In this document: positions 51,701 through 57,700 of the stretch, in pieces
Numbering within the stretch: position 1 is the stretch's first letter
Layout of the letters: each line of letters starts with the position of its first letter
Assembly (NCBI RefSeq): GCF_048403405.1
Contig: NZ_CP183129.1
Reading direction: 5' to 3' (one strand)
Length of the DNA: 64,000 nt
Source of the DNA: Escherichia coli
GTDB lineage: Bacteria > Pseudomonadota > Gammaproteobacteria > Enterobacterales > Enterobacteriaceae
Made by a program: the position numbers

Positions 51701-54700
51701 CAGAAGGCAATCAGCTGGCTGAAAGAGCTGGGCAATCCTTACGCACTAAGCCTGTTTGATGGCGACGGCATGTTAGGACTGGATCTCGGTGTCTATGGCG
51801 CGCCAGAAACGTTCCTCATCGACGGCAACGGCATCATTCGCTATCGCCATGCGGGCGATCTCAATCCTCGCGTCTGGGAAGAAGAGATCAAGCCGCTGTG
51901 GGAGAAATACAGTAAGGAGGCCGCACAATGAGGTTTTTATTGGGCGTGCTGATGCTGATGATCTCCGGCTCAGCGCTGGCGACCATCGACGTGTTGCAGT
52001 TTAAGGATGAAGCGCAGGAGCAGCAGTTCCGGCAACTCACTGAAGAACTACGCTGCCCGAAATGCCAGAACAACAGCATTGCCGATTCCAACTCGATGAT
52101 TGCCACCGACCTGCGCCAGAAAGTGTATGAACTGATGCAGGAAGGTAAAAGTAAGAAAGAGATTGTCGATTATATGGTGGCGCGTTACGGCAACTTCGTC
52201 ACTTACGATCCGCCGTTAACGCCGCTGACCGTGCTGCTGTGGGTGCTTCCGGTAGTGGCTATTGGCATTGGCGGTTGGGTCATTTACGCCCGTTCGCGGC
52301 GTCGGGTACGCGTGGTGCCGGAAGCGTTTCCTGAACAAAGCGTGCCGGAAGGTAAGCGTGCCGGATTTGCTGTTTACCTGCCGGGTATTGTTGTGGCGTT
52401 AATTGTGGCTGGCGTCAGCTACTACCAGACTGGCAACTATCAGCAGGTGAAAATCTGGCAGCAGGCCACGGCACAGGCTCCGGCGTTACTGGACAGGGCG
52501 CTGGATCCGAAAGCCGATCCGCTCAACGAAGAAGAGATGTCGCGCCTGGCGCTGGGGATGCGTACTCAACTGCAAAAAAATCCGGGAGATATAGAAGGCT
52601 GGATTATGTTGGGCCGCGTTGGCCTGGCGCTGGGTAACGCCAGTATCGCCACCGATGCATACGCTACTGCGTATCGCCTCGATCCGAAGAACAGCGATGC
52701 TGCACTGGGATACGCTGAAGCGTTGACACGTTCATCTGATCCCAACGACAACCGCCTCGGCGGCGAACTGCTGCGCCAGTTGGTGAGAACGGACCATAGC
52801 AATATTCGTGTGTTAAGCATGTATGCGTTTAACGCCTTTGAGCAGCAGCGATTTGGCGAAGCCGTTGCCGCGTGGGAGATGATGTTGAAACTCTTACCTG
52901 CCAACGATACTCGCCGTGCGGTGATTGAACGTAGTATCGCGCAGGCGATGCAACATTTGTCGCCGCAGGAGAGTAAATAAAAAGAGGCCCGATGGTGATG
53001 CCATCGGGCTGTTTTTATTGTGCCCCGCGTTGTTGCAGGAACAGAATGGTGGCCGCCACGCGTGAGCGGACATTGAGTTTACGCAGCAGATTGCGAATGT
53101 GTACTTTTACTGTCTGCTCGGAAATATTCAACACCGAGGCAATCTGTTTATTTGACAGCCCCTGTGCCAGCTCGTGCAGAACATCCAGCTCGCGCTCCGT
53201 CAGCACGCTGAAGGGATCTTCTTCCGCGCCAAACATTTCACGTTCACGTAAGTACTGATTGACGCGTTCGCTAAAGACTTTGCTGCCTTTCGCTCCGGCA
53301 CGAATCGCTTCCAGCAACACTTCCGGGTCGCTGTCTTTCAACAGATAACCGTCTGCGCCTGCGTCTATCAGCGCAAAGACATCGCTGGAGGCATCGGATA
53401 CGGTCAGGATAATAATTTGCGCGGTAACGCCATCCCTGCGCAAGGCATTGAGGGTATCCAGGCCACTCATACCTTTCATATTGAGATCCAGCAAGATCAC
53501 GTCGATATCCAGTCTATTCGCCAGATCGATCGCGCTCGCGCCGTCGCCCGCTTCGGCGACCACTTCAAAGCCAGGATCAAGCTCCAGTAACTGACGAACA
53601 CCGCGTCGCATAAGTGGATGATCATCCACAATCATCACCTGAAAAGGCGTTGCTTCAGGCATAGTAGTCTCCTGAGGTTTTATTAGAATCATTATGTTTG
53701 AGCGTAGCGTTGGTAACGCTACCAGGCGCGTGAATGTTACCCCATTTTATGTATGGACATGTAGCGAAAACTACAACCTTGTCGTTCGCTTTGGCATCAC
53801 TTTCATTATAAAGACGGAATTTTGCATCAGCTTCTCATCAAGAAAAACAACTAAAAAATCAATCACAATACTTGTGCATTTCTTTAAACAGTTTTTAAAA
53901 ACTGACTCCGGGTATGGAGCTATGGGTATTTTCTCTACCCAATGCTTTTAACAGCAATTAATTTCATAGGATGAAAGCTCAATGCATCAATCTGGTTCTG
54001 TTTCTCTTTGTCGTTCCGCAATATCTGTTCTGGTGGCTACAGCGTTATATTCACCCATAGCATTGGCATCAACAGTTGAGTATGGTGAGACAGTTGATGG
54101 TGTTGTCCTGGAAAAAGATATCCAGCTGGTTTATGGGACCGCCAATAATACGAAAATCAATCCTGGCGGAGAACAGCATATTAAAGAATTTGGTATAAGT
54201 AGTAATACTGAAATTAACGGCGGGTATCAGTACATTGAAATGAATGGCACCGCAGAATACTCAATATTAAATGATGGTTATCAAATTGTTCAAATGGGTG
54301 GTGCGGCAAACCAGACTACCCTCAATAATGGTGTGTTACAGGTTTATGGCGCAGCGAATGAACCTACGATTAAAGGCGGGCGCTTAATTATTGAAAAAGA
54401 TGGGATTACCGTCTTTGCCGCTATCGAAAAGGGAGGATTACTGGAGGTTAAAGAGGGGGGATTAGCATTTGCGGTAGATCAGAAAGCCGGCGGTGCGATT
54501 AAAACAACCACCCGGGCCATGGAGGTATTCGGAACAAACCGTCTCGGTCAGTTCGATATCAAGGATGGTATTGCTAATAATATGCTGTTGGAAAACGGCG
54601 GAAGTTTGCGAGTTGAAGAAAATGACTTCGCTTATAATACCACTGTGGATAGTGGCGGCTTACTGGAGGTTATGGATGGCGGGACTGCAACTGGCGTTGA

Positions 54701-57700
54701 TAAAAAAGCAGGCGGAAAATTAATTGTCTCAACGAATGCGCTGGAAGTGAGTGGTACAAACAGTAAAGGCCAATTTAGTATAAAAGATGGTGTGTCAAAA
54801 AATTATGAACTGGATGATGGTTCCGGGCTCATTGTTATGGAGGACACGCAGGCCATTGATACTATCCTTGATGAGCATGCCACTATGCAATCGCTGGGAA
54901 AGGATACTGGTACGAGAGTGCAGGCAAATGCGGTATATGATCTCGGTCGATCAGATCAGAATGGAAGTATCACGTATTCCTCAAAAGCCATCTCTGAAAA
55001 TATGGTTATCAACAATGGCCGCGCTAACGTCTGGGCTGGCACAATGGTTAACGTTTCAGTCAGAGGGAATGATGGCATTCTTGAGGTCATGAAGCCGCAA
55101 ATAAATTATGCGCCCGCAATGTTGGTGGGTAAGGTAGTGGTTTCTGATAGCGCTTCTTTTAGAACGCATGGTGCCGTGGATACCAGCAAAGCGGATGTTT
55201 CGCTCGAAAATAGCGCATGGACCATCATTGCCGATATCACTACGACGAACCAAAACACTCGCCTCAACTTAGCCAACCTTGCGATGTCTGGCGCAAATGT
55301 GATTATGATGGCTGAGCCAGTGACTCGTTCATCTGTGACGGCAAGTGCGGAAAATTTCATTACGTTGACCACCAATACCCTGTCGGGAAATGGCAATTTT
55401 TATATGCGTACCGATATGGCTAATCATCAGAGCGATCAGCTCAACGTCACCGGTCAGGCAACAGGTGATTTCAAAATATTCGTGACGGACACCGGTGCCA
55501 GCCCGGCAGCAGGAGATAGCCTTACACTGGTAACAACGGGCGGCGGTGATGCTGCATTTACGTTGGGCAATGCCGGAGGCGTTGTTGATATCGGTACGTA
55601 TGAATATACCTTGCTGGATAATGGCAACCATAGCTGGAGCCTCGCAGAGAATCGCGCGCAAATTACCCCTTCAACCACTGATGTGCTGAACATGGCAGCA
55701 GCACAACCGCTGGTATTTGATGCAGAACTGGACACCGTGCGTGAGCGTCTTGGTAGCGTAAAAGGCGTTAGTTACGATACGGCGATGTGGAGTTCGGCAA
55801 TTAACACCCGCAACAACGTGACCACTGATGCGGGAGCTGGCTTTGAGCAAACATTGACGGGCCTGACGCTCGGTATCGATAGCCGTTTCTCCCGTGAAGA
55901 AAGCAGCACAATTCGCGGCTTGTTCTTTGGTTACTCTCATTCTGATATTGGTTTTGATCGCGGCGGCAAAGGTAATATCGATAGCTACACCCTGGGGGCT
56001 TATGCCGGTTGGGAGCATCAGAACGGTGCCTATGTTGATGGAGTGGTGAAAGTTGACCGTTTTGCCAACACCATCCATGGCAAGATGAGTAATGGAGCAA
56101 CAGCGTTTGGCGATTACAATAGTAACGGCGCGGGTGCTCATGTCGAGAGCGGGTTCCGTTGGGTTGACGGATTGTGGAGTGTTAGACCCTATCTGGCCTT
56201 TACCGGCTTTACCACAGATGGTCAGGACTACACGTTATCAAATGGCATGCGCGCGGATGTGGGAAATACCCGGATATTACGCGCTGAAGCGGGAACGGCG
56301 GTAAGCTATCACATGGACCTGCAAAACGGTACGACGTTGGAACCCTGGCTGAAAGCCGCCGTGCGTCAGGAATACGCCGATTCTAACCAGGTGAAAGTTA
56401 ATGACGATGGCAAATTTAATAATGATGTGGCTGGAACCCGTGGCGTTTATCAGGCTGGGATAAGGTCATCGTTTACCCCGACGTTAAGCGGTCATTTGTC
56501 AGTCAGTTATGGCAATGGCGCAGGGGTAGAATCGCCGTGGAATACTCAGGCGGGTGTGGTCTGGACGTTCTGATAACAGAAAATAAACAGGCCGTGATGT
56601 GTCGCGGTCTGTTTATCGAATTAAATGCAGATATAAAAAAACCAACCGTAAAGGTTGGTTTTTTTTGGGATTTTTGGTCGGCACGAGAGGATTTGAACCT
56701 CCGACCCCCGACACCCCATGACGGTGCGCTACCAGGCTGCGCTACGTGCCGACTCGTGGCTGTTAATACTACCGTTTTCCACACCGATTGCAAGTAAGAT
56801 ATTTTGCTAACTGATTTATAATTAATCAGTTAGCGATAAAACGCTTCTCGTCTGTCAGTACTTGCAATAACAAACTTAACTGTGGTTTTTCATCTTTCAC
56901 TCTTTCACCACGTAAGTTGTAAGTACGGTATTTACCGTTATTGTTCAGCACCAGCGTCTTTTTCGGGGTGGTAATTGCCAGCGTATCGTTATCCGCGGCG
57001 GTAACCCAGTAATGACGGCGTTGAGAGTTGAACAAATCCTGACCTTGCGAATATTCGCTGGCAGGTGTGCTGACATGTAGCAGGCGTTGCATCAGCGTCG
57101 TCATCAGATCGGTATGATCAGTCAGAGCATTAATACGCTGCGCCGGCGTACCTGGCCAGTGAATCACTAATGGCACCTGCAGATGACCGTGGGACCAGTC
57201 AAAGGTTTCTTCCTCTTCGCTCAGCGGAATACCCCGACCGGCAGTGATAATCACCACCGTATTGTCCAGTTTGCCAGAATCACGTAGTGCATTGAGCACG
57301 CGGTTGATCTGGTCATCGACATTGCTTGCCGCCCGGCTATATTTCCGTGCAAATGCCTGCTGATTGCTGTCGTCAATGTTAGTGCCATTGAAAGAAACCC
57401 ACGAGAACCAGCGGTTATCTTCTTGTGCGTAGCGGCCCAGCCAGTTGATCCACTGCGTGGCGGTCTGCTCGTCGGATTGGGTGCGTACGCTCGGCATCGA
57501 GAAATCTGACAACAATGCCTGGCGATACAGCGGGCTGGTAAAGCCATCTGACGAGAATAACCCCAGCTGATAGCCTTGCTGATTAAGCGCAGTAATTAAC
57601 GCCGCAGGCGTACGGGTCGACAGAATGCCGTCCATATAGCTCGGCGAGATGCCATAGAACAGGCCAAAGATGCCGTTGTCTGTAGTGTTGCCGGAGCTCA

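What the first reader, a model, noticed from the sequence alone, without database searches (positions are those of the whole stretch)
53693..56573. yejO autotransporter appears intact with no insertion sequence in the narP-yejO interval
The narP-yejO intergenic region is 289 bp of AT-rich sequence with no transposase ORF or terminal inverted repeats, and yejO is a single 863-aa ORF with signal peptide and C-terminal barrel. My recollection, which I cannot verify here, is that MG1655 carries an IS5 copy adjacent to or within yejO and annotates it as a pseudogene. If so, this strain retains a potentially functional adhesin-like autotransporter that the reference strain lacks.
Basis: partly seen in the sequence, partly recalled or inferred. 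Interest (0 to 1): 0.3.

Follow-up and report, generated by a model that had tools for sequence, protein, structure and literature searches.

The report
Intact yejO gene, no IS5 insertion
This E. coli strain carries the ordinary uninterrupted form of the yejO surface-protein gene, which the laboratory strain K-12 lost to an IS5 insertion; that K-12 defect is already documented, so this is not a discovery.

Summary
Window 53982-56573 (+) is one 863-aa ORF with the full architecture of a classical autotransporter: signal peptide, two AIDA repeats, a pertactin-like junction and a C-terminal beta-barrel. Neither IS5 DNA nor an IS5 transposase occurs anywhere in the 64-kb window.

In MG1655, yejO (b2190) is annotated as a pseudogene split by IS5K. 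The 1195-bp element sits after CDS nucleotide 67, inside the signal-peptide codons L22/Y23, and is flanked by a TTAT duplication. The window has a single TTAT at 54045-54048.

Among 5,426 complete E. coli genomes, the K-12 junction is in 357, and every one I inspected is a K-12-type laboratory strain. The empty site is in 5,049. The window therefore shows the ancestral state.

An intact yejO is still not universal:
- 1,133 genomes lack the barrel region.
- 1,166 carry a W789->TGA stop, often with an ATG->ATT start codon.
- Together with K-12, at least 49% of genomes have a dead yejO.

The window allele is identical to that of strain TUM14771, which PGAP names "autotransporter YejO". Its dN/dS against other alleles is 0.08-0.24. 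Expression and function were not tested. The finding is already known and of low interest.

The parts
53015..53662 (-). narP (response regulator NarP, 215 aa), transcribed divergently from yejO
   Evidence: ORF. The identical locus in TUM14771 is annotated narP, WP_001113637.1. An AGGAG Shine-Dalgarno sequence lies upstream of the ATG at 53662.
53663..53981 (.). narP-yejO intergenic region, 319 bp and 37% GC. It contains no IS, no transposase and no Rfam family.
   Evidence: Only 13 of 319 sites vary among 18 alleles.
53982..56573 (+). Intact yejO coding sequence (863 aa plus stop), a classical type Va autotransporter
   Evidence: It is 100% identical to the TUM14771 yejO, WP_000554201.1, 'autotransporter YejO'.
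53982..54068 (+). Predicted Sec signal peptide (aa 1-29, cleavage after A-L-A)
   Evidence: Read from the sequence. Inference only, since no predictor was run.
54045..54048 (+). Empty IS5K target site: one TTAT copy (codon L22 plus the first base of Y23). MG1655 has it duplicated on either side of the 1195-bp IS5K.
54069..55271 (+). Passenger domain (aa 30-430) with two tandem 74-aa AIDA-type repeats at about aa 151-298. It carries 23 of the 25 differences from the K-12 protein.
   Evidence: Pfam AIDA PF16168, two stretches. PDB sequence matches to the Ag43, AIDA-I-family and TibA passengers, E 1e-37 to 3e-26. Repeats printed; differences listed.
55272..55646 (+). Pertactin-like junction or autochaperone domain (aa 431-555)
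   Evidence: PF03212, 153 bits. Matches to pertactin 1dab and 2iou.
55785..56570 (+). Beta-barrel translocator domain (Pfam match aa 602-841; the protein runs on to aa 863 and ends in WTF)
   Evidence: PF03797, 158 bits. TIGR01414, 372 bits. BrkA translocator 3qq2, E 1e-18 over aa 582-863.
55915..56543 (+). Segment present here but deleted in the barrel-less yejO remnants of 1,133 complete genomes (for example A33 and GPEC1031; ST131 is reported to lack yejO)
   Evidence: PMC5654935.
56346..56348 (+). Codon W789 (TGG here). It is TGA in 1,166 complete genomes.
56635..56665 (.). Hairpin with a 13-bp stem flanked by A and T runs, a likely bidirectional terminator between yejO and proL
   Evidence: This is a consensus match only.
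56675..56751 (-). tRNA-Pro(GGG), proL, in the same synteny as K-12

Best explanation
The interval holds the ancestral, uninterrupted allele of the chromosomal gene yejO, in its conserved position ccmH - narP - yejO - proL - yejM. The K-12 lineage later acquired IS5K inside the signal-peptide codons. That insertion separates the start codon and the first 22 codons from the rest of the gene. This strain never had the insertion.

YejO is a classical (type Va) autotransporter of the AIDA-I/Ag43 kind. By inference from that family, it would work as follows. The 29-residue signal peptide takes it through Sec. The C-terminal roughly 260 residues form an outer-membrane beta-barrel inserted by BAM. The passenger, roughly 530 residues, is threaded to the cell surface. 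It consists of AIDA-type beta-helix repeats plus a pertactin-like autochaperone. On the surface it probably acts as an adhesin or aggregation factor.

Shown here:
- the gene is intact;
- it has the complete domain architecture;
- its synteny is conserved;
- the IS5 site is empty;
- the alleles show purifying selection.

Inferred only:
- expression;
- secretion;
- adhesive function.
For: ORF and domains.

MG1655 annotation with IS5K splitting yejO. Exact junctions and the TTAT duplication, with a restored 863-aa ORF once IS5K is removed in silico.

No IS5 in the window.

Counts in 5,426 complete genomes: K-12 junction in 357-358; empty site in 5,049. All 11 junction-bearing records I saw listed are K-12-type laboratory strains or of K-12 genome size: ER1709, DH5a, MG1655, C600, Stbl4, ST18, TUM24570 and others.

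The 863-aa YejO cluster has 16,859 member sequences.

dN/dS of the window allele against 14 other alleles is 0.08-0.24 overall and 0.03-0.15 in the linker and barrel.

Published statements that K-12 yejO is an IS5K pseudogene: PMC11005336, PMC11677980, PMC1174868.
Against: Nothing contradicts the structural claim.

Several points weigh against the gene being functional in practice:
- No sigma-70 consensus promoter was found in the intergenic region, 0 against 1.7 expected.
- The region is AT-rich, which is typical of silenced adhesin loci. That link is background knowledge and was not tested here.
- No experimental study of YejO function turned up in the searchable literature.
- The gene is evidently dispensable, since at least 49% of complete genomes carry a clearly inactivated copy.
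Confidence: 0.95

Rival explanations
1. The gene is intact but cryptic: it is transcriptionally silent under ordinary conditions. If so, this strain and K-12 would not differ in phenotype even though their sequences differ.
For: No consensus promoter in the 319-bp, 37% GC upstream region. The gene is lost repeatedly in nature by three independent routes, so it is dispensable. In a K-12 RNA-seq compendium yejO ranks 4501st in the paper's expression table, a few places from its end (PMC10392735), although there the gene is already broken by IS5.
Against: dN/dS of 0.08-0.24 between intact alleles implies the protein has been under selection, and so was expressed at least sometimes. The upstream region is well conserved, with 13 variable sites in 319 among 18 alleles.
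Confidence: 0.4
2. The ORF is open but the protein is already non-functional through missense changes, making it a pseudogene at an early stage.
For: The species shows frequent decay at this locus. The window allele belongs to a minority sequence type: only 58 of 5,426 records are at least 99% identical over the 3.9-kb locus.
Against: All domain models match at full length with high scores. Only 2 of the 25 differences from K-12 lie beyond residue 444, both in the barrel domain. dN/dS is well below 1. The identical protein has its own RefSeq accession and is named YejO by PGAP.
Confidence: 0.08
3. The strain once carried IS5 at this site and lost it by precise excision, so the intact state is derived.
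For: None found.
Against: There is a single TTAT copy and no scar. The empty site occurs in 5,049 genomes of all lineages, while the insertion is confined to 357 K-12-type genomes. The window differs from K-12 by about 2% across the locus, so it is not a K-12 derivative.
Confidence: 0.01

Closest known systems
YejO of E. coli K-12 (b2190, 'adhesin-like autotransporter YejO', annotated pseudogene)
   Same: It occupies the same locus and synteny (narP - yejO - proL - yejM/lapC) and has the same 863-codon length. After in-silico removal of IS5K the two proteins are 97% identical, with 25 differences.
   Different: K-12 has the 1195-bp IS5K plus a TTAT duplication after nucleotide 67. The window has neither. 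K-12 also has a 152-bp REP-type insert between ccmH and narP that the window lacks.
Antigen 43 (Flu), AIDA-I and TibA: self-associating autotransporter adhesins
   Same: The passenger matches the solved Ag43, AIDA-I-family and TibA passengers (E 9e-37 to 3e-26). It carries AIDA repeats and the strand-loop-strand repeat TIGR04415 (60 bits against a cut-off of 30). The overall type Va architecture is the same.
   Different: It scores far below the equivalog cut-offs: Ag43 132 against 1200 and AIDA-I 71 against 1200. It is shorter, at 863 aa against 1039 to 1287 or so (those lengths are from background knowledge). There is no adjacent heptosyltransferase gene, and no aggregation phenotype has been shown.
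Pertactin, BrkA and Vag8 (Bordetella autotransporters)
   Same: The junction or autochaperone domain and the barrel are homologous: Vag8 7akv E 1e-35 over aa 459-860, BrkA barrel 3qq2 E 1e-18, pertactin 1dab E 9e-18.
   Different: The N-terminal passenger is unrelated, the organism differs, and no functional equivalence is implied.
Other IS-inactivated K-12 genes (for example wbbL and nmpC, also hit by IS5)
   Same: These are the same kind of K-12-specific lesion, caused by the same element (PMC11677980).
   Different: The target gene differs. At yejO the duplication is TTAT rather than the CTAA or CTAG quoted for typical IS5 sites.

Membership tests
Classical (type Va) autotransporter | C-terminal autotransporter beta-barrel domain | tested here: met
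   PF03797 at aa 602-841, 158 bits (cut-off 26); TIGR01414, 372 bits (cut-off 16); BrkA translocator 3qq2, E 1e-18.
Classical (type Va) autotransporter | N-terminal Sec signal peptide | tested here: inconclusive
   The sequence shows a basic n-region, a hydrophobic core and A-L-A|S at residues 27-30. It was read by eye, because no signal-peptide predictor was available.
Classical (type Va) autotransporter | Passenger with a beta-helix fold and a junction or autochaperone region before the barrel | tested here: met
   Tested at the sequence-profile level only: AIDA PF16168 twice, Pertactin PF03212 at aa 431-555, and matches to solved beta-helical passengers. No 3-D model was made.
Classical (type Va) autotransporter | Aromatic C-terminal residue (outer-membrane-protein beta-signal) | tested here: met
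   The protein ends ...AGVVWTF.
YejO orthologue group | Conserved position between narP and tRNA-Pro(GGG)/yejM, and high identity to named YejO proteins | tested here: met
   Synteny. It is 100% identical to WP_000554201.1 'autotransporter YejO', 97-98% identical to the 16,859-member YejO cluster and 97% identical to the reconstructed K-12 protein.
Ag43/Cah family (NF033177 equivalog) | Score at or above the curated cut-off of 1200 bits | tested here: not met
   132 bits.
AIDA-I (NF033176) | Score at or above the curated cut-off of 1200 bits | tested here: not met
   71 bits.
BafA family (NF040482) | Score at or above the curated cut-off of 700 bits | tested here: not met
   219 bits, in the C-terminal part only.
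IS5 insertion at yejO (the K-12 state) | IS5 inverted repeats (GGAAGGTGCGAA...), the insH transposase and a duplicated TTAT | tested here: not met
   No blastn or tblastn hit to IS5K or InsH anywhere in the window, and a single TTAT at 54045-54048.
Functional adhesin | Surface display and an adhesion or aggregation phenotype | not testable with these tools
   No experimental data on YejO function were found in the literature searches.

The most novel reading that the evidence does not exclude
yejO may be a hotspot of parallel, lineage-specific inactivation in E. coli. At least three independent lesions account for at least 49% of 5,426 complete genomes: IS5 in K-12, a 629-bp barrel deletion with further passenger deletions, and W789->TGA with a lost start codon. 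The surviving alleles remain under purifying selection. This pattern would fit selection against display of YejO in some niches, for example because it is an immune or phage target, rather than neutral decay. Intact alleles such as this one would then mark lineages in which the adhesin still pays its way.
Probability: 0.15. Interest if true: 0.3.

Novelty: already known. Interest (0 to 1): 0.07.

Why it matters
It matters very little. The finding restates a documented peculiarity of the K-12 reference: yejO is one of several K-12 genes broken by IS5. It is a reminder that K-12 is not a good guide to the surface-protein repertoire of wild E. coli.

The only modest added value is the population picture. 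About half of the complete genomes have lost yejO by different routes. An intact allele under purifying selection, such as this one, would therefore be a reasonable template for a first functional test of YejO, for which I found no experimental study in the papers I could search.

Tried and rejected
1. The 85-aa ORF at 53694-53951 in the intergenic region. It is open in all 18 alleles compared. However, it has no Pfam hit. Nine of its 11 variable sites are nonsynonymous, and they fall 4/4/3 across codon positions. It has no well-spaced Shine-Dalgarno sequence. I rejected it as a gene.

2. My recollection that EHEC EhaC might be the YejO orthologue, which would have supplied functional data. 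PMC5634895 equates ehaC with yfaL, so I rejected the idea.

3. NarL/NarP heptamers in the intergenic region. There is one TACCCAT, on the minus strand at 53922-53928. No 7-2-7 site has fewer than 3 mismatches. This is not informative.

4. An Rfam scan of 52900-57000. Only tRNA-Pro passed; the three other matches were far below their gathering scores.

5. The promoter scan found no consensus sigma-70 site in 53600-54100.

6. A 41-mer of the window's own W789 region, used as a counter-query, matched only 636 genomes because of neighbouring SNPs. It cannot be used to count intact alleles.

7. Structure prediction, the representative-protein search and the metagenome and genome-contig scans were deliberately not run. 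The family assignment is already unambiguous and the finding is ordinary.
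Full report
**What is there**

Window 53982-56573 (+) is a single ATG-initiated ORF of 863 codons. Pfam finds two AIDA repeats (PF16168, 173 bits), a pertactin domain at aa 431-555 (PF03212, 153 bits) and the autotransporter beta-domain at aa 602-841 (PF03797, 158 bits). All are far above their curated cut-offs. NCBIfam TIGR01414 (autotransporter barrel) scores 372 bits against a cut-off of 16.

Against solved structures, the passenger matches Ag43, an AIDA-I-family adhesin and TibA (E 9e-37 to 3e-26). The C-terminal half matches Vag8, the BrkA translocator and pertactin.

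The N-terminus (MHQSGSVSLCRSAISVLVATALYSPIALA|ST) looks like an ordinary Sec signal peptide, and the protein ends in WTF. Both points were read from the sequence.

The neighbours are:
- narP at 53015-53662 (-);
- tRNA-Pro(GGG) at 56675-56751 (-);
- yejM, starting at 56826 (-);
- the ccm operon, upstream of narP.

This is exactly the K-12 gene order. The locus is 100% identical over 3.9 kb to E. coli TUM14771 (human faeces, Japan), where PGAP annotates the gene as 'autotransporter YejO', WP_000554201.1.

**The intergenic interval**

The annotated NarP start is 53662, preceded by AGGAG. That gives 319 bp (53663-53981), the same as in MG1655. The interval is 37% GC against 52% for the window.

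It contains no inverted terminal repeats and no Rfam family. The whole 64-kb window has no blastn hit to IS5K and no tblastn hit to InsH.

An 85-aa ORF at 53694-53951 is open in all 18 alleles compared. It has no family hit, and its variable sites are 9 nonsynonymous to 2 synonymous, spread evenly over codon positions. It is not a gene.

**The K-12 comparison**

NC_000913.3 annotates yejO (b2190) as a pseudogene joined from two pieces: a 67-nt fragment 1, then IS5K (1195 bp, insH8/b2192), then fragment 2.

My alignment shows the window is collinear with MG1655 across the 14 kb fetched, with two exceptions: IS5K, and a 152-bp REP-type insert between ccmH and narP in MG1655.

The IS5K ends are GGAAGGTGCGAA.../...TTCGCACCTTCC, and TTAT is duplicated on both sides. 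The window has one TTAT at 54045-54048, which is codon L22 plus the first base of Y23, within the signal peptide.

Deleting IS5K and one TTAT from MG1655 in silico restores an 863-codon ORF. It differs from the window protein at 25 residues, 23 of them at or before residue 444, in the passenger and the start of the junction domain.

The K-12 lesion is stated in the literature (PMC11005336; PMC11677980; PMC1174868).

**How common each state is**

All counts below are among 5,426 complete RefSeq E. coli genomes.

| State | Genomes |
|---|---|
| K-12 yejO::IS5 junction present | 357-358 |
| Uninterrupted insertion site | 5,049 |
| Barrel region absent | 1,133 |
| W789 TGG->TGA stop | 1,166 |
| ATG->ATT start codon | 777 |

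- **IS5 junction.** Every listed example is a K-12-type laboratory strain or of K-12 genome size: ER1709, DH5a, MG1655, C600, Stbl4, ST18, a 'laboratory developed' TUM24570 and others. The window shows the ancestral state, and the insertion is private to the K-12 lineage.
- **Barrel deletion.** In A33 and GPEC1031 the remnant lacks window 55915-56543. It also lacks different parts of the passenger, and PGAP flags it as a pseudogene. This agrees with a report that ST131 lacks yejO (PMC5654935).
- **W789 stop.** The count comes from a 41-mer centred on the variant base, which megablast's 28-nt word can seed only if that base matches.
- **ATT start.** All five TGA alleles I inspected also have this change.

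The IS5, barrel-deletion and W789-stop sets cannot overlap. K-12 has TGG and a barrel, and barrel-deleted genomes lack codon 789. At least 2,656 genomes (49%) therefore carry a dead yejO.

In a systematic sample of 13 full-length, IS-free loci, 8 were intact and 5 carried the TGA/ATT allele. Another allele has lost one of the two 74-aa AIDA repeats in frame, giving a 789-aa protein.

The collection is biased towards clinical and laboratory strains, so these are descriptive proportions, not population frequencies.

**Is this allele likely to work?**

Nei-Gojobori dN/dS between the window allele and 14 others is 0.08-0.24 overall. It is 0.06-0.33 in the passenger and 0.03-0.15 in the linker and barrel. 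The protein has therefore been under purifying selection through most of the divergence of these lineages.

All domain models match at full length. By family knowledge, the mechanism would be Sec export, BAM-assisted barrel insertion, and passage of the beta-helical passenger to the surface, helped by the pertactin-like autochaperone.

Several points count against practical function:
- No consensus sigma-70 promoter is detectable upstream.
- I found no experimental work on YejO function.
- The gene is clearly dispensable.

I therefore give the structural conclusion about 0.95 and the 'intact but usually silent' reading about 0.4. The two are not mutually exclusive.

**Comparison with known families**

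The protein is a member of the type Va autotransporters, and within them of the YejO orthologue group. It resembles Ag43, AIDA-I and TibA in its passenger repeats. It fails their equivalog thresholds by a wide margin (132 and 71 bits against 1200), and also BafA's (219 against 700). It should not be filed under any of those names. EhaC, which I had suspected to be the EHEC name for YejO, is equated with yfaL instead.

**Verdict**

The uninterrupted gene is the species' ancestral state, and the IS5 insertion is a well-documented K-12 peculiarity.

The only mildly interesting by-product is the extent of independent yejO loss across E. coli. That may or may not reflect selection, and I could not test it here.

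Noticed in passing
window ~52987-53010 (ccmH-narP intergenic) against L001 (MG1655), reverse-complement coordinates 4674-4825: MG1655 carries a 152-bp REP/BIME-type insert between ccmH and narP, with a duplicated terminator hairpin (it includes GCCGGATGCGGCGTGAACGCCTTATCCGGCCTAC). The window and TUM14771 lack it, so their intergenic region is 34 bp instead of 210 bp. Related REP copies occur elsewhere in the window, at about 60040, 28000 and 39900.
   Followed up: partly
window 56346-56348 (codon W789) and 53982-53984 (start codon); L006, L011, L014, L015, L016: A widespread dead allele of yejO. TGG->TGA at codon 789 occurs in 1,166 of 5,426 complete genomes. ATG->ATT at the start codon occurs in 777. 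All five inspected TGA alleles also have ATT.
   Followed up: partly
window 55915-56543; L003 (A33), L004 (GPEC1031): A 629-bp deletion of most of the barrel is shared by two remnant types. They differ in a second, passenger deletion: CDS nt 473-1476 in one and 403-1556 in the other. The barrel region is absent from 1,133 complete genomes.
   Followed up: partly
L005 (SWYH.B349aT) against window 54494-54653: An in-frame 222-bp loss of one of the two tandem 74-aa AIDA repeats gives a 789-aa protein that is annotated as intact. The number of passenger repeats therefore varies between strains.
   Followed up: partly
L006 9889-15695 (E. coli O126:H45 MIN10); the equivalent point in the window is about 56680-56700: In some strains the match to the window stops at the tRNA-Pro side of yejO. 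An island follows, with two integrase genes, a DUF6387 protein and an HTH regulator. The window has no such island. A Shigella paper describes the proL/yejO boundary as a prophage attachment region (PMC4924310).
   Followed up: no
window 53663-53981: The narP-yejO intergenic region has only 13 variable sites in 319 bp among 18 alleles (0-9 differences per allele from the window). The yejO coding sequence has a dS of about 0.05-0.09. This suggests regulatory constraint from the narP and/or yejO promoters, but no site was identified.
   Followed up: partly
window 54045-54048; L001 (MG1655) IS5K junctions: The IS5K target duplication at yejO is TTAT. This departs from the CTAA or CTAG sites quoted for IS5 in PMC11677980.
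   Followed up: no
window about 54570-54690 (YejO aa 198-234 and a second stretch): The passenger matches TIGR04415, the strand-loop-strand repeat that heptosyltransferases target in AIDA-I and TibA (60 bits against a cut-off of 30). No heptosyltransferase gene is adjacent to yejO.
   Followed up: no
L008 (PEC1003) 982-1033: PGAP starts yejO 51 nt downstream, at 1033, in this strain. The ATG at 982 is present and the 863-codon frame is open, so this looks like an annotation inconsistency rather than a sequence difference.
   Followed up: no
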